From: Escherichia phage vB_EcoM_LNA2
Length of the DNA stretch: 64,000 bases
Sequence record: MZ311865.1
Direction: 5' to 3' (one strand)
The notes beneath the pieces are model-generated. The model was not told the DNA's origin. It searched no databases and saw only the letters and a program-made list of their open reading frames with translations. Shown piece by piece: positions 5,400-20,044 of the stretch (position 1 is the stretch's first letter; each line of letters opens with the position of its first letter). Position numbers and translations under genes: made by a program.

Positions 5400-5702
5400 T
5401 TAGATAGATGTAGGCTCTAATTTTATTTTCATGAACTCAGCAAATTGTCTGGCGGTTTTTATGCCTTGTTCATGACATTCAAATGCATCATCACAGGGAC
5501 TATTTTTGTAATGCTTTGCCATATACTTATAGAATTTTTCAGAATTCTCGACATTTTGAATTTCAAACAAAGTATATACGTTTTTAATCCCTGATTCCAT
5601 AAAGTTATCAAAATATGGGTCGATATGTGCAGTACCAACGATAGGAGTTGTTGCTGCAAAAAACCCCAGCATCGCTATGACAGCTATCGCTCTTAAGGCC
5701 AT
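5400..5702 (-). CDS. rI: lysis-inhibition regulator rI-like protein (signal-anchor membrane protein)
   Basis: Translation MALRAIAVIAMLGFFAATT...DPYFDNFMESGI... closely resembles T4 rI as recalled; AGGAGG RBS; positioned next to tk as in T4. Confidence 0.8.
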   Translation of the reverse strand: MALRAIAVIAMLGFFAATTPIVGTAHIDPYFDNFMESGIKNVYTLFEIQNVENSEKFYKYMAKHYKNSPCDDAFECHEQGIKTARQFAEFMKIKLEPTSI

Positions 5703-11906: not shown

Positions 11907-12167
11907 TTAAGCTTTACCGCCAGAAATAATTCCGAAGTTGTTAAAATCGTATCCAATATCGTCAACATCTACTTTAGGGCTTGCTACAACATAAGCAATT
12001 TCACTACGTTTTGCATAGGTGTTGATTTCTTTACCATCGCCACCTAAGAAAGAATACCCATTACGTTTTAATGAGCCAAAGTCTTCCGCATCACCAATGA
12101 AAGCTTTAACTTTAAATTTAGGACCTTTGGCATCTGCTTCAATGATAAATTCTTGATACATTTTCAT
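11907..12167 (-). CDS. internal-protein-family protein with capsid-targeting leader (86 aa)
   Basis: N-terminus MKMYQEFIIE. Confidence 0.7.
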   Translation of the reverse strand: MKMYQEFIIEADAKGPKFKVKAFIGDAEDFGSLKRNGYSFLGGDGKEINTYAKRSEIAYVVASPKVDVDDIGYDFNNFGIISGGKA

Positions 12168-12645: not shown

Positions 12646-12927
12646 CTATTTTTCTGAAGCGCCTGAAATATATTTTTCAAGACGTTGTTTCATCAGCGAG
12701 CCGTTCTTAGCGATTTCTTCTGGTTTATCGCACATACGCAACAAGGCTTCAAGCTTAGCGATATCGCTGGTACGTTCAAATTTGCGAGTATCTATCTTAC
12801 TAGCAAGTTCAGAAATACGTGCTAATAGACTTTCAGCTTCAACCAAAGCTGCACCTAGCTTAGTTGCAAATGTGTCAGTAGCTTCGTTAAGAATAGATTC
12901 TGATAAAAATTCACTATATGTTTTCAT
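12646..12927 (-). CDS. internal-protein-family protein with capsid-targeting leader (93 aa)
   Basis: From the ATG at 12927: [10 protein letters not shown]...; its start overlaps the e stop (ATGA). Confidence 0.65.
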
Positions 12928-13412
12928 ATATACGCTTTCCAAGTTCCTGTTTTAAATGTTGAGATTACGCGTTTCGCGCGATTAGGTGTCTGACGATACC
13001 ATTTAGATTGGGCTAGATTTGCTGCCGCTTCATCCCAACGTTTCTGTTTAAGCATACGAAGAGAATTAGTAAAACCGGCGACTCCTGCTACACCCATTTG
13101 GAAGACCATATTGACCAATGCACACCGACGAACTGCATCTAAAGAATCATATACCGGTTTAAGTTTAGCATTACCCAAGATTCCGCGGACGGCTTTATCA
13201 ACGTCTTCATTAAATAGCTTTTCAGCCTCATCAAGGGTAATTGTACCGTTGCATTTACGACCGATCATTCTGTCAAGTTCAGCTTTAGCTACGGCTAAAG
13301 ACGGGTTCTTTGTTACTAAATGGCCTATGCCAATCGTCCAAAAGCCTTCAGTGTCTTTGTATAAAGTCAGTCTAAGACCTTCGTCATTACGAAGCATTTC
13401 AAATATATTCAT
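12924..13412 (-). CDS. e: lysozyme (endolysin), T4 e-type
   Basis: From the ATG at 13412: [32 protein letters not shown]... closely resembles T4 lysozyme as recalled, with catalytic Glu11/Asp20 context conserved; SD sits in a hairpin. Confidence 0.9.
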
Positions 13413-13413
13413 A

Positions 13414-13439
13414 ATACCTCCCACGTTTATAGGAGGTAT
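13414..13439 (-). promoter_or_regulatory. RBS-sequestering hairpin in the e (lysozyme) leader
   Basis: 8-bp inverted repeat atacctcc / ggaggtat with a 10-nt loop; the GGAGG Shine-Dalgarno forms one arm, and the ATG follows 1 nt after the stem. Confidence 0.55.
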
Positions 13440-13446
13440 TTATTAC

Positions 13447-13905
13447 TTATAGGAGGGTAGTGAGCACCTTATATAATGATTTGCCCATTACATATTCCCA
13501 TTGAGAAGGTTTAATTAAAGCGAATGCATCAAATTCAGGAATCTGTCGTCCGTCCGGGAATGTATGATAGGAATTACAAACACTGTTTCTGAATTGCTCG
13601 TGCTCTACAGGGATGGTATATAGGAACAGATGAATATTCTTATTGTCTGAGTAATTATGTTCACCTAGGTCTTTCAGGAAGGCAGGGTCATATTGTGTAA
13701 ACCCAGTTTCTTCTTCGCATTCACGAATAGCGGCTTCGATAGGAGATTCACCCGGCTCGACACGTCCTTTAGGAATATCCCACCGATGAGCTAATGCACC
13801 TTTAGGACGAGAACCAGTTACACGCCCCATGAATAACTCTTTATCTTTTGTCATGAAGATAATACCAGCTGATATCTCTTTCACTTTATTTTTCTTACTC
13901 ATCAT
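13447..13905 (-). CDS. nudE: Nudix hydrolase
   Basis: Nudix box GRVEPGESPIEAAIRECEEETGF in translation; position after e as in T4. Confidence 0.8.
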   Translation of the reverse strand: MMSKKNKVKEISAGIIFMTKDKELFMGRVTGSRPKGALAHRWDIPKGRVEPGESPIEAAIRECEEETGFTQYDPAFLKDLGEHNYSDNKNIHLFLYTIPVEHEQFRNSVCNSYHTFPDGRQIPEFDAFALIKPSQWEYVMGKSLYKVLTTLL

Positions 13906-14146
13906 CTCGGTCCCATGATTTGGCCATTAATTCGGACATAAATTCTTCAATGCGCGTTTCTTTAGATGGACTTTCACTATTAGAGACCGCAAGTTTGTAA
14001 TCTGCAATAGGACGGAACAAATCAAGGTCCGTATTAAGGTCGTCTTTGATTTTTTCTTCTGACACATCTTTATCATATGTGTACAGATAACTATCACATG
14101 ATTCTGATTTAATGTAAATTGCTATACTCATCTCAAATTCCTGCAT
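13895..14146 (-). CDS. hypothetical acidic protein (83 aa)
   Basis: ORF track; its ATG lies inside the ECR codons of the upstream gene. Confidence 0.45.
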   Translation of the reverse strand: MQEFEMSIAIYIKSESCDSYLYTYDKDVSEEKIKDDLNTDLDLFRPIADYKLAVSNSESPSKETRIEEFMSELMAKSWDRDDE

Positions 14147-14619
14147 TCGGTAATAAAACGTTCAACTTCATTATTCTTGGCTTTTATCTTGTCTTTATGT
14201 TCTTGTAAACTACTTTTAATAAGATTAATAATGATGGCGGCGGTACCGCCGCCAATGATGCCACCAACAACACTTATGATACTAGATGCTAATAAGATAG
14301 CAATAATATCAACAAAACCGAAAGAACTCACCTTAGTACTAAAAAACCACACTGACGGTACAAATATAATCCATCCTGTTATCCATTGGCACTTATTGAA
14401 AAACTTTTCAAGCTCAGCTTGAGTTGTTCGTATTACTTCATCGATAGGTTGATATCCGTTAATGTATCTGTTCACAATAATACCTGCTGGCTGGTCGATT
14501 TTAAATGCTTGACAATGACGTTTCACTAAGTAGGATGGACATCCTGTCCAATCTATAGAATAATATGAAGTACCTTCGTCGTCATCGTCCATGTTTGCCC
14601 AGTGAATTTTATGTATCAT
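14128..14619 (-). CDS. membrane protein with C-terminal TM segments and FITECR tail motif (163 aa)
   Basis: Hydrophobic segments near the C-terminus (WIIFVPSVWFF, IIAILLASSIISVVGGIIGGG) and tail ...ERFITECRNLR shared with paralogues. Confidence 0.5.
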   Translation of the reverse strand: MIHKIHWANMDDDDEGTSYYSIDWTGCPSYLVKRHCQAFKIDQPAGIIVNRYINGYQPIDEVIRTTQAELEKFFNKCQWITGWIIFVPSVWFFSTKVSSFGFVDIIAILLASSIISVVGGIIGGGTAAIIINLIKSSLQEHKDKIKAKNNEVERFITECRNLR

Positions 14620-15305
14620 TACCAGCCTTCCATAGGGAATTCCAGATAAACTTGAGCATTGACACGAATTTCATTGGTAATCTTTTTAACTCGGTCTGTA
14701 TTACGAGATACACGTCCGAACCAACGCCATCCGTTACTAATTGCACGAGAACCAGTGTGCCATGTTTGCCAATCAAACTGAAGAAGAGTACGATCTGGAG
14801 CTTCCCATTTCTCTAGTTCACCTTTTTCATTTTTTTCGAGGACTTCTTTGTGCCACTGGCGATAGATAAGTTCGCCATCAGGAATCTGACTGAACTCCGC
14901 AGTTCCTGTTGCAAAATGAGTAGGACACACATCAGCGTTAACAAGACCAAGAATATGTTCAGAATGGTAACGAGGGTTGTCATAGTCAGGTTGTCCTGCA
15001 GTAATAAAGTGTTGACCTACCGGAATATCCGGGCGTGGTACGTCGTCATGGTGATAGCCTGGGATTGCAGGATACCAACCAGGCATCAGCATGTGGACTC
15101 GTGAATCAAATACAACCTGGTCGGTGTTCCAATCATCCGGCAAGTTCATGATGAAGCTGCGAGTAATAGGACCGCCGTTATTATAAGCAAATTCTAAACT
15201 ACAGTTGAAGAACATAGGCTCGTTCTTGATTTTATCATTAGAAATACCGCCGGCAAAACCACCTACTGCACGAGCTTGACTATTAAACACTTTAGAACTA
15301 TTCAT
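14619..15305 (-). CDS. hypothetical protein (228 aa), His/Asp-rich
   Basis: ORF track; GYHHDD and HxxxH-like clusters in translation; function not assignable. Confidence 0.5.
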   Translation of the reverse strand: MNSSKVFNSQARAVGGFAGGISNDKIKNEPMFFNCSLEFAYNNGGPITRSFIMNLPDDWNTDQVVFDSRVHMLMPGWYPAIPGYHHDDVPRPDIPVGQHFITAGQPDYDNPRYHSEHILGLVNADVCPTHFATGTAEFSQIPDGELIYRQWHKEVLEKNEKGELEKWEAPDRTLLQFDWQTWHTGSRAISNGWRWFGRVSRNTDRVKKITNEIRVNAQVYLEFPMEGW

Positions 15306-15306
15306 A

Positions 15307-15612
15307 TTATTTTCCTCGACATTCTTTAATGAAATTTTCTAGATTGGTAGATTCAATAGCTTTTTTACGAGCTTCTGCGTGTTCTTCTTCGGACAATTTA
15401 CGTTTATAATTGACCCAGACATTATGGTCGAAACCAGTCGTGGCATATAATATCAAAGCTCCGACGAATAATAAAAACGGTGATAAAAATATACAACCAG
15501 GAACACCATCCATATCGTAAGCCTTTTGTAATACTGCAACAGAAAGAGTTACGTAAAAAGGTGATGCAAGTATTGTTAAAAGACCAATTCGGTTGGTTTC
15601 TGTTAATTTCAT
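15307..15612 (-). CDS. small membrane protein with C-terminal ENFIKECR motif (101 aa)
   Basis: Two hydrophobic helices; tail ...LENFIKECRGK; early promoter at 15639-15668. Confidence 0.55.
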   Translation of the reverse strand: MKLTETNRIGLLTILASPFYVTLSVAVLQKAYDMDGVPGCIFLSPFLLFVGALILYATTGFDHNVWVNYKRKLSEEEHAEARKKAIESTNLENFIKECRGK

Positions 15613-15638
15613 AATATTCTCCTCAAGTTGATAGGACT

Positions 15639-15668
15639 ACTATAACATAGTCCTATAATTGTGTAAAC
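15639..15668 (-). promoter_or_regulatory. T4-type early promoter with palindrome
   Basis: GTTTAC, 18 bp, TATAGT inside the same ataggactactataacatagtcctat palindrome. Confidence 0.6.
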
Positions 15669-15680
15669 AGTTTTGTGAAG

Positions 15681-16637
15681 TTATTTGAAAGGTTTTACCA
15701 TATGGAAATTTTGTTTGAAACGTTTTACGTAATCGTCGTGTCCTAAGCTTTGGTACATACTTACTACTTTGCTATAATTTTCCCAAGCGAACTCACGGAA
15801 CCAACCGGAGGTGATGCTTGTGCAGACTTTTTCTAATGCCATCATAAAACTATCACGCGGATGGATTTTAAAGTTGTTAGGAATCTGAGAACGTTCTAAT
15901 GCTAGTACACATGATTCTTCGTATACACCTGCCAATTTGACCATTTCTGGTAACGATTCGAACTTCTCGCGTGAGGTCATGACTTCAGAACCGTCTTTCA
16001 TGTAAAACGTATAAGCCGGACGGTCTGTTAGTGCAATGGCTTCATGAATAGTATCATGGTCATATGTATAGATGTCATCTTTAAAGAACGCACTTTTAGA
16101 AGTGTCAAGAACCGGGTGAGCATAGTTCAAAGTTTCTTTCTGGCGTTTCAACATAATTTCAGTAAGTTCATCGTTCAGTGTAACACCTTTACCACGAAGA
16201 TACTGAATATGGTTCATAGTCTTTAAAAAGAATGGATTATTTTTCTTGAAACGATGAGACATCTTAATTGCAAGACATATCTCAGGAGTTGCCCAGTAAA
16301 ACCCAGTCAAACGGTCTTTAGTCAAATTTTTCTTGGCGTATTTTAAAAGGTCATAAGAAGATGTGAAATCTTCAGGAGTGAGTTCACCGACTAATTCACG
16401 GACATTAGTGATTGCCGGAACAATATATGCTTCAAAATGAGTTTCACGTCCATTATGGAAGCATTTGAAAACTTGGACATCAGGGTTATCTTGGTGAACA
16501 TATACACCCATCATTTGATTTTTGAATGCATTCCAAGAACCTTGGTCCGCAATAAAGTCCCAATCGCTATTTTTGATAGCGCTAGAATCAATAAGACCAT
16601 GATAGTGAAGTGCACGAGAACCAATAACTAACATCAT
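15681..16637 (-). CDS. hypothetical protein (318 aa) with N-terminal NTase-like GS...D.D motif
   Basis: N-terminus MMLVIGSRALHYHGLIDSSAIKNSDWDF resembles the Pol-beta-type nucleotidyltransferase signature; weak, pattern-only. Confidence 0.55.
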   Translation of the reverse strand: MMLVIGSRALHYHGLIDSSAIKNSDWDFIADQGSWNAFKNQMMGVYVHQDNPDVQVFKCFHNGRETHFEAYIVPAITNVRELVGELTPEDFTSSYDLLKYAKKNLTKDRLTGFYWATPEICLAIKMSHRFKKNNPFFLKTMNHIQYLRGKGVTLNDELTEIMLKRQKETLNYAHPVLDTSKSAFFKDDIYTYDHDTIHEAIALTDRPAYTFYMKDGSEVMTSREKFESLPEMVKLAGVYEESCVLALERSQIPNNFKIHPRDSFMMALEKVCTSITSGWFREFAWENYSKVVSMYQSLGHDDYVKRFKQNFHMVKPFK

Positions 16638-16665
16638 AATATTTTCCTCGGATTAATTCATCAAC

Positions 16666-16917
16666 TTAAATTTCACGACATGCGATATTATATTCATCCC
16701 AGAGGTCATCATGTGAAGCCTCTACCAATGGAACGATTGTACCGTTTATGTCTTCATTATAAGGGCAAATTGTACAGTGCGCATCTTCGAATCGGATGCC
16801 TTTGTGTTCAGATTTTTTATAACGCATATCGAATATCTTTGCAAACTTTTCACGAGTAATAGTTTTAGCAACTACTTCGGTTCCAATACTTTCGTAATAA
16901 ATCATTGTGGACTCCAT
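16666..16917 (-). CDS. hypothetical protein (83 aa)
   Basis: ORF track; early promoter at 16934-16963. Confidence 0.45.
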   Translation of the reverse strand: MESTMIYYESIGTEVVAKTITREKFAKIFDMRYKKSEHKGIRFEDAHCTICPYNEDINGTIVPLVEASHDDLWDEYNIACREI

Positions 16918-16933
16918 TTAATTTGATAGGACT

Positions 16934-16963
16934 ACTATAACATAGTCCTATCTTATTGTAAAC
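16934..16963 (-). promoter_or_regulatory. T4-type early promoter with palindrome
   Basis: GTTTAC, 18 bp, TATAGT inside the ataggactactataacatagtcctat palindrome. Confidence 0.6.
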
Positions 16964-16967
16964 TGTT

Positions 16968-17165
16968 TTAGCAAGAATAACTAGACGATACCCAGCCTTG
17001 AACAGTAATGCTATTATTAGATAATGAGATCGCGTCCTGGAGATTCAGACCTGCGTTATCTTCAATCCATAATGTAACTTCTTCGCGTTCTTCTGTTGCA
17101 ATTTGGAACAGGTTTTCTAGAGCAGCTACTGCGGTACGTACAGCACAATCTAATTCACGAGACAT
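16968..17165 (-). CDS. small protein of the GW-x-SSS-xx-C C-terminal family (65 aa)
   Basis: C-terminus QGWVSSSYSC; one of three tandem paralogues. Confidence 0.5.
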   Translation of the reverse strand: MSRELDCAVRTAVAALENLFQIATEEREEVTLWIEDNAGLNLQDAISLSNNSITVQGWVSSSYSC

Positions 17166-17174
17166 ATGGTTTCC

Positions 17175-17447
17175 TTAGCAAGTGTGAGAAGATGCAACCC
17201 AACCACCAGTTTCGAGGCTCAGGTTATAGTCGTATTGGTAAACGTCGGCCCATTCAGCATAGCCGTTTTTTGTACAACGTTCAAGATCGGCTTTAAGATG
17301 TCCTGGCGAATGATAGGTTCCACCCATACCATAAGCTGGATACAAGTCGAATGTTGTGTTTTGTTTATCAGCAATTTCTTTGGCAGCCTCAATAGCTGCA
17401 TAGATTTTTGCTACAGCTTCAGCCAGCTCGGTTTGTTCTTTAGACAT
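17175..17447 (-). CDS. small protein of the GW-x-SSS-xx-C C-terminal family (90 aa)
   Basis: C-terminus GGWVASSHTC; GGAA RBS for the next gene follows the stop. Confidence 0.5.
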   Translation of the reverse strand: MSKEQTELAEAVAKIYAAIEAAKEIADKQNTTFDLYPAYGMGGTYHSPGHLKADLERCTKNGYAEWADVYQYDYNLSLETGGWVASSHTC

Positions 17448-17456
17448 AATGATTCC

Positions 17457-17762
17457 TTAGCACAACGCAGAAGACGAAATCCAAGCACCTTCAGTAATAA
17501 CGTAACCATTACCTTCACGCTTAACATCGCCACCATTATTTTCAATTTCGTTTTTCATCCACTGGGATACGATTTCACCTTTAGGATAATAAGTACGACC
17601 GCTACCATAATCACCTACAGAAAACGATACGGCATATTGGTCTGCGATCTTTGTTGCTTCTTCTTCGATACGTTCAGCTTGATTCAGAAGTTTATAAATT
17701 GCATCTGAAGCGGATTTGGCATCATTAAACTCTGGTACTTTAATTTCAATAATCTTACTCAT
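17457..17762 (-). CDS. small protein of the GW-x-SSS-xx-C C-terminal family (101 aa)
   Basis: C-terminus GAWISSSALC. Confidence 0.5.
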   Translation of the reverse strand: MSKIIEIKVPEFNDAKSASDAIYKLLNQAERIEEEATKIADQYAVSFSVGDYGSGRTYYPKGEIVSQWMKNEIENNGGDVKREGNGYVITEGAWISSSALC

Positions 17763-18118
17763 TTTCTACATTCCTTAATAAAGTTTTCGATTGTTTCATT
17801 TTCACGTCTAGCTAGGAGTTCATTATAACTAATCATTTGAGAAGCGTAAACCTTTTTATTTTTCTTGTTATGGTTTATAAAATCGTAGTAAAAATAGACT
17901 ACAGTACAAAATGATGCGATGGATGCAAAGGCTTGGGTATACCGTAAGTCCTGCCATTGGTCTGTGAATCCACCAGTGTTCCCTATAAATCCTAACACAA
18001 CGCCGTCAATAAGAAATCCAATTAATCCAAAGGCAAATCCCATGCCAATACTCATAATAAAAATTAGAATGTTCTCACCAAGAGAAGGCCATACGGTTAA
18101 GAGTTGAGGCTTTTGCAT
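17759..18118 (-). CDS. small membrane protein with C-terminal ENFIKECR motif (119 aa)
   Basis: Hydrophobic N-terminal half (ILIFIMSIGMGFAFGLIGFLIDGVVLGFIG); tail ...IENFIKECRK. Confidence 0.5.
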   Translation of the reverse strand: MQKPQLLTVWPSLGENILIFIMSIGMGFAFGLIGFLIDGVVLGFIGNTGGFTDQWQDLRYTQAFASIASFCTVVYFYYDFINHNKKNKKVYASQMISYNELLARRENETIENFIKECRK

Positions 18119-18522
18119 CTTATTTCCTTAACGAATTCCATAGCTTCTTCATATTCGTACTTTTTAACAGCTTCATCATACTGAGCTTGGGCTTTTGCGC
18201 ACTGGACTTTCCACTCGCGAACTCGAGCTCTGTGATGACGGCCTTGGTGCCAATATCCTGCCCAATTAATAGGCATTAATAAAAACGGTACAATAAGTGG
18301 TGCGACGAACATTAATGAAAACGCTGCATCAGACGATATAACTTTATTGGAATCTAAAATAGCTCCTATAATCATAAAGATTAAAAATGCTAAAGCTAAA
18401 ATAGGGCCAAATAGTACTTCGTTTGGGATTAATTTACGTTTGTATTCGTATGCCCAGGGCTTAATTGGCATGTATAGGGTTGGCTTTGACATATTCTCTA
18501 CATTCCATAATAAATTGCTCAA
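18097..18522 (-). CDS. membrane protein (141 aa), start uncertain
   Basis: Hydrophobic segments (FGPILALAFLIFMIIGAIL, AAFSLMFVAPLIVPFLL); tail ...EFVKEIRCK is a variant of the family motif; overlaps the upstream ORF so the true start is probably an internal Met. Confidence 0.45.
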   Translation of the reverse strand: MSNLLWNVENMSKPTLYMPIKPWAYEYKRKLIPNEVLFGPILALAFLIFMIIGAILDSNKVISSDAAFSLMFVAPLIVPFLLMPINWAGYWHQGRHHRARVREWKVQCAKAQAQYDEAVKKYEYEEAMEFVKEIRCKSLNS

Positions 18523-19078
18523 GGATTAAATTGTTAGTGAAATTAGGACTAACAACCATGGTTTCATAAAGCGCATCAATAGCACTTAAAGCATCAACTC
18601 TTTTAAGCAAAGGCTTGCCTTCATACATAGTTTCAGAATCGACGATTAAAGTGAAGTAGTATTTTTTATTATTGACCAGAACTTCTGTATCAATATAAAA
18701 CATGTTAGACCTTAAAAGCTTGTCTCTAAAGCCTACGTAATCATCTGAACGTTCACTGATGTATTCCCATTCAGTGTTTAAACAACAAACAGACCACGTA
18801 GGAGCAACGAAATCAGTGAATCTAATATCATGGTCTGCAACTAGTTTAGCAATAGCTCCGATATCATGAATCATAATACCTGGGGCTAATAAAGATTTTC
18901 GGTGATTTGCATATTCAGTTGTCTCATAAGAAGACGACCAGTACCATTTACGTCCAGTTGCAACATATCGTAATGAATCAACTAAAGACGTAGGTGGATT
19001 TACCTTATTTCGGAACTCTTCGAACATTGAGTCAATATCATTATTTTGGTTTCGCATGTTAACTCCTTTATTATCCAA
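18461..19078 (-). CDS. hypothetical protein (205 aa) ending in EQFIMECR-like motif
   Basis: ORF track; C-terminal ...LEQFIMECREYVKANPIHAN. Confidence 0.5.
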   Translation of the reverse strand: MDNKGVNMRNQNNDIDSMFEEFRNKVNPPTSLVDSLRYVATGRKWYWSSSYETTEYANHRKSLLAPGIMIHDIGAIAKLVADHDIRFTDFVAPTWSVCCLNTEWEYISERSDDYVGFRDKLLRSNMFYIDTEVLVNNKKYYFTLIVDSETMYEGKPLLKRVDALSAIDALYETMVVSPNFTNNLILEQFIMECREYVKANPIHAN

Positions 19079-19106
19079 AAGGAGGACCGGAGTCCTCCGT
19101 ATTATT

Positions 19107-19700
19107 TTATTTCAAAGAGTTAATATATTCTTGTACATCAGCAGAAGTGGTTTCGACACCGGCTGGAGTACCATTGAACGTTTCAACACGAGTTAGAGTG
19201 TCTTCGATATCAACCTTAGTCAGTGCAGCGATTTCAATTACATCATCGGCCGTAGAGATACCAAGGGCATTGGCTGCTCGAGTTTCACGAATGTATTCGA
19301 GTTTGATTGCCAGATTCTGACGAGCATCATCAAGTTCAACCACCTTACGAGCAATTTCAATTCGCATAGCGGCATACCCGTCAGCTTTTGTATTAAGTTG
19401 TTCTGCAGTTCGACGATACAGAAGACCAAGCTTAGCATGCATGGTAACATCTTGTCCTTCAGCCAGGAGCTTACGAATTTCACGTTCCTTAGAAGCGGCT
19501 TGCTTATTCTTTTCAATAACAAGTTCGCGAATACGTTTTTCTTCATTAATAGATTTAACAGAAGCCGTTTTTAGTTCTTTGATTTGGGTAATCAACTTAT
19601 CTGCAGCTGCGTTATACTGTTCTTCGACAGTCAGATTTTTAGCCATAGCAGTACCCAGTTTAGTGCGAATGAATTCAACAAGTTTCTTCAGTGTGTTCAT
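19107..19700 (-). CDS. coiled-coil protein (197 aa)
   Basis: Track ORF 19107..19715; ATG at 19700 ([10 protein letters not shown]...) is preferred; K/E/A/R-rich heptad-like composition. Confidence 0.5.
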
Positions 19701-19770
19701 ATTATTACCTTTCAATTGGTGGTTTATTATCCAATGAGAGCATTATACTCTGCTCTCAAGAGTTTGTAAA

Positions 19771-19998
19771 TTATTTTTTAATCAAATTGACATAAAACTT
19801 GGCGTCTTCCGGGTGCATGCCTTCACAGTATTCTTCAACCATGAACTTCTTAACAGCTTCGTAAGGACCACTCAGATTAAGCTCAGTTGTCCAGAACTTA
19901 GAATCTTGGACCGAATCGATACGAACGCCAGGGTGACGGTTGCGAATAACTTCTTCGGTGTATTCATAATCAACGACATCAATACTAACTTTAGCCAT
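19771..19998 (-). CDS. hypothetical protein (75 aa)
   Basis: ORF track. Confidence 0.45.
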   Translation of the reverse strand: MAKVSIDVVDYEYTEEVIRNRHPGVRIDSVQDSKFWTTELNLSGPYEAVKKFMVEEYCEGMHPEDAKFYVNLIKK

Positions 19999-20044
19999 TT
20001 TGTTTTCCTCTTGATTTGATGTGATTACTATAACATAAACTTAC

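What the first reader, a model, noticed from the sequence alone, without database searches (positions are those of the whole stretch)
14128..19078. Paralogous family of small membrane proteins ending in E-x-F-I-x-E-C-R
Five neighbouring genes end with ...ERFITECRNLR (14128-14619), ...ENFIKECRGK (15307-15612), ...ENFIKECRK (17759-18118), ...EFVKEIRCK (18097-18522) and ...EQFIMECREYV (18461-19078); the rI-like protein ends with the related ...QFAEFMKIK. Four have TM helices. Synonymous codon differences (TTC/TTT, TGT/TGC, CGA/AGA/AGG) show protein-level selection, although the ECR codons also overlap the next gene's RBS or start. A diversified set of membrane-anchored proteins with a common tail fits superinfection-exclusion or lysis-timing functions (rI is the lysis-inhibition sensor).
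Basis: partly seen in the sequence, partly recalled or inferred. Interest (0 to 1): 0.5.

Follow-up and report, generated by a model that had tools for sequence, protein, structure and literature searches.

The report
Shared C-terminal peptide on T-even early proteins
Several otherwise unrelated early proteins of this RB69-like phage (the T4 e.2–e.5 genes and one extra gene) really do end in the same short peptide (hydrophobic-E-x-F-I-x-x-C-R), which selection maintains at the protein level across T4-like phages; it looks like a common cytoplasmic docking tag with an unknown partner, not the signature of a lysis-timing membrane-protein family.

Summary
The window is a Mosigvirus (RB69-like T-even phage). 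The five genes are T4 e.2, RB69 ORF133c, e.3, e.4 and e.5.

**What holds up**
- Four genes end in E-x-F-I-x-E-C-R. e.4 carries a shifted variant (F-V-K-E-I-R-C-K). The rI resemblance is not real.
- The motif is far beyond chance. In six-frame T4 it occurs at the C-termini of e.5, e.3 and a split e.2, plus only one internal and one non-coding-frame match.
- In 45 loci anchored on the neighbouring gene e.6, from several T4-like genera, it occurs 151 times within 25 residues of a C-terminus and twice internally.
- Codons at the conserved residues are fully mixed (Cys TGC 55/TGT 52; six Arg codons). The distance to the next start codon varies from 0 to about 85 nt. Selection therefore acts on the peptide, not on the ribosome-binding site.

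**What does not hold up**
- About 30 families unlinked by BLAST carry the tail, and about half have no transmembrane (TM) helix. Profile comparisons align the five families only over the tail, except e.3–e.4 and ORF133c–e.2, weakly.
- T4 imm, sp, rI, rIII and t lack the tail.

**Reading**
In membrane carriers the tail is predicted cytoplasmic. Tail genes always lie 0–7 kb downstream of e.6. The most likely role is a C-terminal amphipathic docking or assembly helix; the partner is unknown. I found no prior description.

The parts
14128..14619 (-). Long form of T4 e.2 (163 aa): N-terminal soluble domain, hydrophobic TM region (about aa 92-135), basic helix, then the tail.
   Evidence: PHROG phrog_2203, E = 1.4e-50. 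PhAPEC2 annotation reads 'similar to e.2'. Hydropathy.
14140..14166 (-). Tail core of e.2: V-E-R-F-I-T-E-C-R (aa 152-160), followed by NLR*.
   Evidence: Scores 17.7 bits on the tail HMM built from non-window tails.
15307..15612 (-). RB69 ORF133c homologue (101 aa): two TM stretches, basic helix, tail. It has its own early-type promoter-like site at 15667-15639.
   Evidence: phrog_9798, E = 1.2e-64. Weak hit to the C-terminal half of the e.2 profile phrog_2203, E = 5.4e-4. Promoter scan. Hydropathy.
15316..15342 (-). Tail core of ORF133c: L-E-N-F-I-K-E-C-R (aa 91-99), followed by GK*.
   Evidence: Scores 22.6 bits on the tail HMM.
17759..18118 (-). T4 e.3 homologue (119 aa), membrane protein with the tail.
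   Evidence: phrog_2330, E = 4.7e-50. 36% identical to T4 e.3.
17765..17791 (-). Tail core of e.3: I-E-N-F-I-K-E-C-R (aa 110-118), followed by K*.
   Evidence: Scores 18.4 bits on the tail HMM.
18097..18492 (-). T4 e.4 homologue (131 aa from ATG 18492): two TM stretches and a basic helix. Its tail is a variant, A-M-E-F-V-K-E-I-R-C-K (core 18118-18144).
   Evidence: phrog_2604, E = 2e-63. 53% identical to T4 e.4. e.4-type tails in other genera are F-[VL]-x-E-[IMS]-R-[CK], without Cys at +4. Scores 1.2 bits on the Cys-type tail HMM.
18461..19057 (-). T4 e.5 homologue (198 aa), soluble alpha/beta protein. The tail forms its last helix.
   Evidence: phrog_2607, E = 3.1e-94. 47% identical to T4 e.5. 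AlphaFold2 gives pLDDT 66 and pTM 0.68, with helix 177-192.
18497..18523 (-). Tail core of e.5: L-E-Q-F-I-M-E-C-R (aa 179-187), followed by 11 more residues.
   Evidence: Scores 15.9 bits on the tail HMM.
19107..19700 (-). T4 e.6 homologue (197 aa). This is context, not a regex member. It is a conserved helical-hairpin protein encoded immediately upstream of the tail-bearing genes in every locus examined. Its own C-terminus (..[10 protein letters not shown]) has a tail-like pattern.
   Evidence: Found in 1101 phage records. Synteny. AlphaFold2 gives pLDDT 76 with a hairpin at 25-80/86-145 and a C-terminal helix at 186-196. C-terminal conservation. A terminator-like hairpin at 19098-19081 separates it from e.5.

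Best explanation
The shared ending is a short C-terminal peptide module. Its consensus is hydrophobic(-3)-E/N/D(-2)-x-F(0)-I/V(+1)-x-x-C(+4)-R/K(+5), followed by 0-25 more residues. It is maintained by purifying selection on the protein.

It is carried by several proteins that are otherwise not detectably related: membrane-anchored e.2, ORF133c and e.3, and soluble e.5. e.4 has a Cys-less variant. All are encoded in one early gene block just downstream of e.6.

The residues at -3, 0, +1 and +4 fall on one face of a predicted alpha-helix. In the membrane members the helix follows the last TM segment and a basic stretch, so it should lie in the cytoplasm, as in the soluble members.

The most likely role is a docking or assembly helix. 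Through it these varied N-terminal modules would bind one common site: a phage protein (e.6 is the obvious candidate), a host protein, or each other.

- **Shown:** the motif, its positional restriction, its peptide-level selection, and its synteny with e.6.
- **Inferred:** the helix, the cytoplasmic location, and the binding function.
- **Unknown:** the partner and the role of the Cys.
For: **Non-random and C-terminal**
- Four strict hits in the window, all at gene ends.
- In six-frame T4 (168.9 kb) the regex [FW][IVL]..C[RK] hits five times. Three are the C-termini of e.5, e.3 and the split e.2. These are also the top three HMM hits among 2384 ORFs.
- In 45 e.6-anchored loci plus the window there are 151 C-terminal hits against 2 internal hits in 265,480 coding-strand residues.

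**Selection on the peptide**
- 107 distinct nucleotide versions use TGC 55/TGT 52, six Arg codons and TTT 69/TTC 34.
- The gap to the next start codon is 0-10 nt in most cases but 20-85 nt in others.
- Only 3 homologues of tail-bearing families lack the motif: one frameshifted gene, one Cys-to-Val change, and one spurious ORF.

**A module rather than whole-protein homology**
- About 30 N-terminal families are unlinked by BLAST, roughly half with and half without TM segments.
- hhalign aligns the window families only over the tail.

**Cytoplasmic helix**
- The basic flanks after the last TM segment follow the positive-inside rule.
- In the e.5 model the tail is helix 177-192.

**Link to e.6**
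- 145 of 147 tail ORFs lie 0-7 kb downstream of e.6, and 2 lie upstream, although both flanks were sampled equally.
- The first ORF after e.6 carries the tail in 41 of 44 loci. The exceptions are a frameshift and an F-I-N-Y-C-I variant.
- In the Aeromonas phage avDM5 and the Pseudotevenvirus EC-F2 loci, the e.6-adjacent gene is the only regex carrier.
- e.6 itself ends in a conserved [VI]-x-[ED]-Y-[IL]-x-S-L-K* helix.
Against: - No interaction was tested.
- My collection of loci was anchored on e.6. The e.6 association is therefore partly built in. I did not scan T4-like phages that lack e.6.
- The invariant Cys is partly a product of the regex. e.4-type tails and one e.3 orthologue use I/M/S/V there. 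The Cys may be just a small hydrophobic residue, or it may have a chemistry I cannot see.
- The e.6 tail-like pattern fits only a relaxed regex, which also hits about 1.6% of T4 ORFs by chance.
- A tail-profile search of 1.84 billion proteins returned only the window's own families. The breadth outside T4-like phages is therefore unknown.
Confidence: 0.45

Rival explanations
1. Reader's view. The five genes are tandem paralogues of one ancestral small membrane protein. The tail is the last recognisable remnant of common descent, and the family acts in superinfection exclusion or lysis timing like rI.
For: - The four membrane members share an architecture: TM hairpin, basic helix, tail.
- e.3 and e.4 are adjacent and align without the tail (hhalign 79%, 33 columns).
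- ORF133c hits the C-terminal half of the e.2 profile (E = 5.4e-4) and, faintly, the e.3 profile (E = 0.096).
Against: - Roughly half of the tail carriers have no TM segment: 13 of 25 in the first six loci, and many families.
- e.5 is a soluble alpha/beta protein.
- All other family pairs align only over the tail.
- The rI resemblance scores 0.1 bits.
- T4 imm, sp, rI, rIII and t lack the tail.
- The tail is predicted to be cytoplasmic.
Confidence: 0.15
2. The tail is a turnover tag or a modification site. It would be a C-terminal degron read by a host protease (FtsH, Lon or Clp), or a site where the conserved Cys (or Arg) is modified. This would give a set of early proteins a common fate or timing.
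For: - The motif is close to the C-terminus (0-25 residues) and exposed at the end of a helix.
- Cys and Arg are near-invariant while their codons vary.
- The motif occurs on unrelated proteins that are all expressed from early-type promoters.
Against: - It does not resemble the degrons I know (ssrA-type LAA, MuA-type, SulA-type; own knowledge).
- e.4-type tails lack the Cys at that position.
- No data on stability or modification exist here.
Confidence: 0.12
3. The tails bind one another. Their amphipathic helices would bundle, possibly around a metal held by the Cys residues, and tie the soluble e.5-like protein to the membrane-anchored members as one complex.
For: - Each enterobacterial T-even locus has 3-5 tail genes, mixing soluble and membrane proteins.
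- The hydrophobic face at -3/0/+1/+4 is suited to helix packing.
Against: - The Aeromonas phage avDM5 and Pseudotevenvirus EC-F2 loci carry only one regex tail gene, the e.6 neighbour, so a hetero-complex of tails cannot be its general role.
- One Cys per chain and a 9-residue core make a small interface.
Confidence: 0.12
4. The conservation is at the nucleotide level. The tail-coding stretch would be the ribosome-binding or translational-coupling region of the next gene, or a short repeat used for recombinational shuffling of genes (in the spirit of the PeSL cassettes of T4-like phages).
For: - In the window the E-C-R codons overlap AAGGA/GAGGA-type Shine-Dalgarno sequences or the next ATG.
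- Most tails end within 10 nt of the next start codon.
- The block is a plastic region in which gene content differs between genera.
Against: - Synonymous codons are fully mixed at F, I, C and R.
- The motif lies 20-85 nt from the next start codon in several genes.
- The longest exact nucleotide match between tails within the window is about 10 nt (read).
- There is no Rfam hit in 13000-20000.
- PeSLs are intergenic promoter-plus-stem-loop units (PMC4122927, abstract), whereas the tail is inside coding sequence.
Confidence: 0.03
5. The tail is a C-terminal counterpart of the T4 capsid-targeting sequence, which contacts the prohead scaffold.
For: The internal-protein-like ORFs in the window start MKMYQEFIIE.. 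(11907-12167) and [10 protein letters not shown].. (12646-12942). This is the same hydrophobic-x-x-F-I/L-x-E pattern as L-E-N-F-I-K-E. I-x-E is the gp21 protease site type (own knowledge of T4 head assembly).
Against: - The tail is at the wrong end of the protein.
- The E at +3 is present in only 34 of 107 tails, while Cys and Arg, which are absent from the capsid-targeting sequence, are near-invariant.
- Half of the carriers are integral membrane proteins.
- The tail HMM does not pick up the internal proteins.
Confidence: 0.04

Closest known systems
T4 genes e.2, e.3, e.4, e.5 and RB69 ORF133c (PHROGs 2203, 2330, 2604, 2607, 9798)
   Same: The window genes are orthologues of these, with E-values from 1e-50 to 1e-94. 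They are 36-53% identical to the T4 proteins. Gene order matches T4 and RB69-like phages.
   Different: Nothing differs; these are the same genes. All are annotated only as hypothetical or predicted membrane proteins. I found no record of the shared tail.
Capsid-targeting sequence of T4 internal proteins (a short conserved terminal peptide on very diverse proteins in a plastic locus)
   Same: Same logic: a roughly 10-residue amphipathic peptide is kept constant while the rest of the protein varies freely between T4-like phages. The two even share the pattern hydrophobic-x-x-F-I-x-E (own knowledge of the T4 sequence MKTYQEFIAE).
   Different: The capsid-targeting sequence is N-terminal, is cleaved by the gp21 protease, and directs proteins into the head. 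The tail is C-terminal, has a near-invariant Cys-Arg, sits on early and often membrane-bound proteins, and is not detected by cross-search.
C-terminal hub-binding peptides (T4 gp43, gp33 and gp55 tails that bind the gp45 clamp; the FtsZ C-terminal peptide that binds FtsA and ZipA)
   Same: Short C-terminal hydrophobic/charged motifs let unrelated proteins share one binding site. The spacing hydrophobic-x-x-F-hydrophobic resembles I-P-A-F-L of FtsZ (own knowledge).
   Different: The resemblance is recalled from memory, not tested. The sequences differ: there is no Cys-Arg in those motifs and no Pro in the tail. No binding data exist.
PeSL cassettes (promoter-early plus stem-loop) that mediate gene shuffling in T4-like hyperplastic regions (PMC2839356, PMC4122927)
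   Same: Both are repeated short elements at gene boundaries in the plastic early regions of T4-like genomes.
   Different: PeSLs are intergenic DNA elements conserved as nucleotides. The tail is coding sequence conserved as amino acids with mixed codons. PeSL-like promoter or terminator sites in the window (19098-19081, 16962-16934, 15667-15639) are separate from the tails.
T4 rI (lysis-inhibition sensor), Imm and Sp (superinfection exclusion)
   Same: These are also small early membrane or periplasmic proteins of T-even phages.
   Different: There is no tail and no sequence similarity. The rI functional domain is periplasmic (own knowledge), whereas the tail is predicted to be cytoplasmic.

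Membership tests
T4 e.2 / e.3 / e.4 / e.5 orthologous groups | Significant full-length sequence similarity to the T4 proteins or their PHROG profiles. | tested here: met
   phrog_2203 1.4e-50, phrog_2330 4.7e-50, phrog_2604 2e-63, phrog_2607 3.1e-94. BLASTP to T4 e.3 3e-22, e.4 5e-54, e.5 1e-64. T4 e.2 matches only over the N-terminal 46 residues because T4 e.2 is split.
T4 e.2 / e.3 / e.4 / e.5 orthologous groups | Conserved position between e.6 and nudE/e on the early strand. | tested here: met
   The order e.6-e.5-e.4-e.3-...-e.2-ORF130c-nudE-e in the window matches PhAPEC2 and T4.
   hhalign without tails gives only e.3-e.4 at 79%; all other pairs are at or below 9%. BLASTP matches are confined to 9-29 tail residues. 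Partial exception: ORF133c against the e.2 profile, E = 5.4e-4.
   e.5 has no TM segment and is modelled as alpha/beta. 13 of 25 tail proteins in six loci, and many of the roughly 30 families, have no TM segment.
   rI scores 0.1 bits on the tail HMM, and the cited stretch scores -3.4 bits. rI also continues past it (LEPTSI*).
rI-type lysis-inhibition sensor | Functional domain exposed in the periplasm, where it meets the holin. | tested here: not met
   The positive-inside rule places the C-terminal tails of e.2, ORF133c, e.3 and e.4 in the cytoplasm. This is a prediction only; no experimental topology exists.
Superinfection exclusion (Imm, Sp) | Similarity to Imm or Sp, or a demonstrated block of DNA entry. 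| tested here: not met
   The T4 imm and sp products are not among the regex or HMM hits in whole-genome six-frame scans. The phenotype is not testable here.
PeSL recombination cassette | Intergenic early promoter plus stem-loop, conserved at the nucleotide level. | tested here: not met
   The tail is intragenic, its codons are mixed, and no structured-RNA family matches. The definition is taken from the abstract of PMC4122927.
T4 capsid-targeting sequence | N-terminal M-K-x-Y-x-E-F-[IL]-x-E, cleaved after the Glu by gp21. | tested here: not met
   The tail is C-terminal. Glu at +3 occurs in only 34 of 107 tails. The internal-protein-like ORFs are not hit by the tail HMM. Cleavage is not testable here.
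PspA / ESCRT-III-like scaffold (considered for the neighbour e.6) | Sequence-profile match to PspA_IM30/Snf7, or a specific structural match. | tested here: inconclusive

The most novel reading that the evidence does not exclude
The tail is a docking peptide for the conserved helical-hairpin protein e.6. In this reading e.6 forms a membrane-associated scaffold whose hairpin can bind either its own tail-like C-terminal helix or, in trans, the F-I-x-x-C-R helices of whichever effector modules a given phage has acquired downstream. T4-like phages would then carry a plug-in system: one constant hub plus a fast-evolving set of soluble and membrane-anchored early proteins recruited through a common 9-residue tag.
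Probability: 0.15. Interest if true: 0.75.

Novelty: new variant of a known kind. Interest (0 to 1): 0.45.

Why it matters
- The block e.2-e.8 is one of the conserved but functionally blank regions of the best-studied virulent phage.
- A peptide tag shared by about 30 unrelated protein families, always next to e.6, gives a concrete experimental handle. A single tail peptide used as bait could reveal the partner and so suggest a function for several ORFan families at once.
- It would also be a second example in T4-like phages, after the capsid-targeting sequence, of a constant short address peptide on freely exchangeable protein bodies. That bears on how phages evolve new early functions.
- If the tail turns out to be merely structural, the finding remains a useful annotation feature and little more.

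Tried and rejected
1. **Word-indexed protein search with e.3.** It returned only 3 near-identical clusters and was useless for distant relatives. I switched to tblastn on phage records and to loci anchored on e.6.
2. **The search for related loci with e.4.** It gave only 2 loci.
3. **Tail profile (5 window tails, 30 positions) against 1.84 billion representatives.** Only 5 significant hits came back, all from the window's own families. The motif is too short for a database-wide search.
4. **Family libraries and PDB sequences.** Pfam, NCBIfam and PDB sequence searches of the five proteins and e.6 found nothing meaningful.
5. **e.5 structure.**
   - The model is of medium quality (pLDDT 66).
   - Foldseek against viral models finds only uncharacterised T4-like phage proteins.
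   - The afdb50 library was unavailable.
6. **e.6 as a PspA-like protein.** Not confirmed.
7. **Literature.** Searches by gene names were swamped by noise or came back empty. Searches for the motif strings found no paper.
8. **RNA-level explanation.** No Rfam match in 13000-20000.
9. **The out-of-frame ATG created by GAA-TGY (E-C).** It is present in only about two-thirds of tails and opens inconsistent frames (read), so I dropped it as a by-product.
10. **Nascent-peptide stalling.** Rejected because the distance from the motif to the stop codon varies from 0 to 25 residues.

Full report
**What the window is**

The 5.2 kb around the finding is 95-97% identical to Mosigvirus genomes, which are RB69-like T-even phages such as SSE1, PhAPEC2 and JS09. 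The genes lie on the minus strand in the early region between the tRNA/e.6 side and nudE-e-denV.

By the PhAPEC2 annotation and PHROG profiles, the five genes are as follows:

| Window coordinates | Identity |
|---|---|
| 14128-14619 | T4 e.2 (long form) |
| 15307-15612 | RB69 ORF133c |
| 17759-18118 | T4 e.3 |
| 18097-18492 | T4 e.4 |
| 18461-19057 | T4 e.5 |

They are not all adjacent. Three small paralogues ending in W-x-S-S-x-x-C, one small ORF and a DUF7275/DUF7277 protein lie between e.3 and ORF133c. ORF132c lies between ORF133c and e.2.

**Observation check**

- The quoted C-termini are correct.
- The strict pattern E.F[IV].E[CI]R occurs four times in the six-frame translation of the whole window. 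Each time it is 9-19 residues before the stop of e.2, ORF133c, e.3 or e.5.
- e.4 has F-V-K-E-I-R-C-K: an Ile where the others have Cys, and the Cys two positions later.
- The rI protein (5400-5702) reads ..ARQFAEFMKIKLEPTSI*, so it does not end with the cited stretch.
- I built a tail HMM only from tails of other phages (96 unique seeds). Scores are in the table below.

| Protein | Tail HMM score (bits) |
|---|---|
| ORF133c | 22.6 |
| e.3 | 18.4 |
| e.2 | 17.7 |
| e.5 | 15.9 |
| e.4 | 1.2 |
| rI | 0.1 |

- Four of the five proteins have TM-type hydrophobic stretches. e.5 does not.

**More than chance**

- I assembled the complete T4 genome from five fetched pieces. The looser regex [FW][IVL]..C[RK] matches only five times in all six frames.
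  - Three matches are the C-termini of e.5, e.3 and an unannotated ORF between e.2 and nudE.
  - One is internal to gp30.3.
  - One is in a non-coding frame.
- The same three are the top HMM hits among 2384 T4 ORFs.
- In 45 loci from T4-like phages plus the window, the coding strand has 151 matches within 25 residues of a C-terminus and 2 internal ones in 265,480 residues.

**Peptide or nucleotides?**

The E-C-R codons overlap AAGGA/GAGGA-type Shine-Dalgarno sequences or the next ATG.
- Across 107 distinct nucleotide versions of the tail, however, the conserved residues use every synonymous option:
  - Cys TGC 55 / TGT 52.
  - Arg AGA 29, CGT 29, AGG 19, CGA 11, CGC 10, CGG 2.
  - Phe TTT 69 / TTC 34.
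  - Ile ATT 53, ATC 17, ATA 11.
- The distance from the Arg codon to the next start codon is 0-10 nt in most genes. It is 20-32 nt in the e.5-position genes of QL01, IME523 and Merlin, and about 60-85 nt in others.
- No Rfam family matches the region.
- The constraint is therefore on the amino acids.

**Homologues**

- T4 e.3 ends ..KEFVIDCRKIK*, e.5 ends ..EKFVKECREYVKAITIPSK*, and e.4 ends ..KFVKESRCKSQS*.
- T4 e.2 as annotated (102 aa) lacks the tail. Related Tequatroviruses have an intact 162-aa e.2 ending ..NLNNFITECRKLK*.
- T4 has lost one A in an A-run. In a recent T4 assembly the downstream 66 codons, tail included, form one open frame that ends on the nudE start.
- The tail also closes e.2-like, e.3-like and e.5-position proteins, and further small soluble proteins, in these phages:
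  - Dhakavirus QL01
  - Kanagawavirus IME523
  - Marfavirus Marfa
  - Moonvirus Merlin
  - Biquartavirus avDM5
  - Pseudotevenvirus EC-F2
- The consensus is hydrophobic(-3), E/N/D(-2), F or rarely W (0), I/V/L(+1), C(+4), R/K(+5), then 0-25 residues.
- The Cys is invariant partly because the regex required it. A check through N-terminal homology found only three homologues without the regex: a frameshifted e.5, one Cys-to-Val e.3-like protein, and a spurious ORF.
- The e.4 family uses F-[VL]-x-E-[I/M/S]-R-[C/K] throughout.

**Is it a paralogous family?**

- BLASTP between the five window proteins aligns 9-29 residues at the tail and nothing else.
- hhalign on small family alignments gives 64-90% probability for five of the ten family pairs, always over 10-20 tail columns.
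- With the tails cut off, every pair collapses (9% or less) except e.3-e.4 (79%, 33 columns of the post-TM helix).
- ORF133c hits the C-terminal half of the e.2 PHROG profile at E = 5.4e-4, and the e.3 profile at E = 0.096.
- Some membrane members are therefore probably old duplicates.
- Across phages, the 133 unique tail proteins fall into about 30 groups that BLAST does not link. About half have TM segments and half do not.
- e.5 is modelled as a soluble alpha/beta protein whose last helix (177-192) is the tail.
- The tail behaves as a module, not as the vestige of one family.

**Location**

In e.2, ORF133c, e.3 and e.4 the segment after the last hydrophobic stretch is rich in Lys and Arg, and the N-terminal flanks are also basic. 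By the positive-inside rule both ends, and hence the tail, face the cytoplasm. This is a prediction. The soluble carriers have no signal sequence or TM segment.

**Context**

- 145 of 147 tail ORFs lie 0-7 kb downstream of e.6 and only 2 lie upstream, although 9 kb was sampled on each side.
- The ORF directly after e.6 carries the tail in 41 of 44 loci. The three exceptions are a frameshifted e.5 and two large Aeromonas phages with F-[IV]-N-Y-C-I.
- In the avDM5 and EC-F2 loci this neighbour is the only regex-positive ORF.
- The e.5-position proteins of most genera are remotely related to each other without the tail. hhalign gives 74-95% for several cluster pairs, and Foldseek E-values against viral models range from 8e-6 to 1e-3.
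- The pair e.6 plus tail-bearing e.5-like gene therefore looks ancestral, and the enterobacterial T-evens have expanded the set to 3-5 genes.
- e.6 is very conserved (1101 phage records).
  - It is modelled as an N-terminal helix, a long hairpin (25-80/86-145, pLDDT about 90) and a confident C-terminal helix.
  - Its C-terminus, [VI]-x-[ED]-Y-[IL]-x-S-L-K*, fits the tail pattern in relaxed form. That relaxed form is not specific, since 10 of 631 T4 ORFs match it.
- My sample was anchored on e.6, so the association needs an independent survey.

**Mechanism**

The facts to be explained are these:

- a roughly 9-residue amphipathic C-terminal helix;
- held constant on many unrelated cytoplasmic or cytoplasm-facing protein ends;
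- several copies per genome;
- confined to one early gene block.

The simplest reading is a docking or assembly motif for a common binding site (confidence about 0.45). The partner could be e.6, a host hub, or the tails themselves. The rivals are:

| Rival | Confidence | Status |
|---|---|---|
| Degron or modification site | 0.12 | untested |
| Tail-tail bundling | 0.12 | untested |
| Capsid-targeting-like address | 0.04 | weak pattern resemblance only |
| Nucleotide-level signal | 0.03 | essentially excluded |

**Comparison with what is known**

- The genes themselves are known hypothetical T4/RB69 genes.
- The local Pfam, NCBIfam, PHROG descriptions and PDB sequences assign neither a function nor a named motif. 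The protein database lists a precomputed Pfam accession PF26876 for e.5 homologues, whose name I could not look up.
- No paper in the searchable library contains the motif strings.
- The nearest concepts are the N-terminal capsid-targeting sequence of T4 internal proteins and C-terminal hub-binding peptides such as the gp45-clamp-binding tails (own knowledge), and the PeSL cassettes at the DNA level (PMC2839356, PMC4122927). The tail fails the defining features of each.
- I therefore class it as a new variant of a known kind (a shared terminal address or docking peptide). It is of moderate interest: real, widespread and apparently undescribed, but without a demonstrated function.

Noticed in passing
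window 16968-17165, 17175-17447, 17457-17762 (minus strand); also L006 1960-3553 and L007 6282-7321: A second paralogous set sits inside the same block. These are small acidic proteins (65-101 aa) that all end in W-[VI]-x-S-S-x-x-C* with the Cys as the last residue (phrog_899). There are 3 copies here and 4-5 in QL01 and IME523. This is another C-terminal Cys signature in the e.6-nudE block, with unknown function.
   Followed up: partly
T4 NC_000866 67472-67633 (minus strand), locus L002 1973-2134; T4 assembly OZ209057.1 in L055: T4 e.2 is split. Related Tequatroviruses have an intact 162-aa e.2. T4 lacks one A in an A-run (TTTTTTATAAAAAT). The downstream frame ends in the intact tail ..NLNNFITECRKLK* on the nudE start codon, yet it is unannotated. 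NC_000866 differs from a recent T4 assembly by 3 nt here. In the newer sequence the whole C-terminal 66 codons are one open frame. This could be a recent lab-strain lesion or a slippage site.
   Followed up: partly
window 19107-19700 (minus strand): e.6 is one of the most conserved proteins of this region (88% identical to T4; 1101 phage records). It is modelled as a long helical hairpin with a confident C-terminal helix. Its last residues ([10 protein letters not shown]) resemble the tail pattern. Some databases call it 'host specificity protein', and I saw no evidence for that name.
   Followed up: partly
window 14389-14415 (minus strand), e.2 residues 69-77: The N-terminal soluble domain of e.2 ends, just before the first TM segment, in L-E-K-F-F-N-K-C-Q. 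This is an internal tail-like motif (1.5 bits on the non-window HMM, and picked up by the first HMM). It looks as if e.2 arose by fusion of a tail-bearing soluble gene with a tail-bearing membrane gene.
   Followed up: no
   Followed up: partly
window 11907-12167 and 12646-12942 (minus strand): These internal-protein-like ORFs start MKMYQEFIIE.. and [10 protein letters not shown]... These are capsid-targeting-type N-termini whose Y-x-E-F-I-x-E pattern echoes the tail's L-E-x-F-I-x-E.
   Followed up: partly
window 14619-15305 and 15681-16637 (minus strand): ORF132c (228 aa, phrog_1843, ends ..VYLEFPMEGW*) and the DUF7277+DUF7275 protein (318 aa) are strongly conserved between Mosigvirus, Dhakavirus, Kanagawavirus, Marfavirus and Moonvirus, but absent from T4. 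They form the insert that separates e.3 from e.2 in non-T4 phages.
   Followed up: no
protein P0058 (60 aa, metagenomic): A database protein joins an e.3 N-terminal fragment to the e.4 C-terminal helix and tail (..ENETIE|AVKKYEYEEAMEFVKEIRCKSLN). It is either an assembly artefact or a natural deletion that fuses the two neighbouring genes.
   Followed up: no
T4 130785-131033 (rIII): T4 rIII ends ..RHFVVTLK*, which fits the relaxed pattern [FWY][IVL]..[CILMV][RK]. That pattern is non-specific (10 of 631 T4 ORFs), so I treat this as chance.
   Followed up: partly
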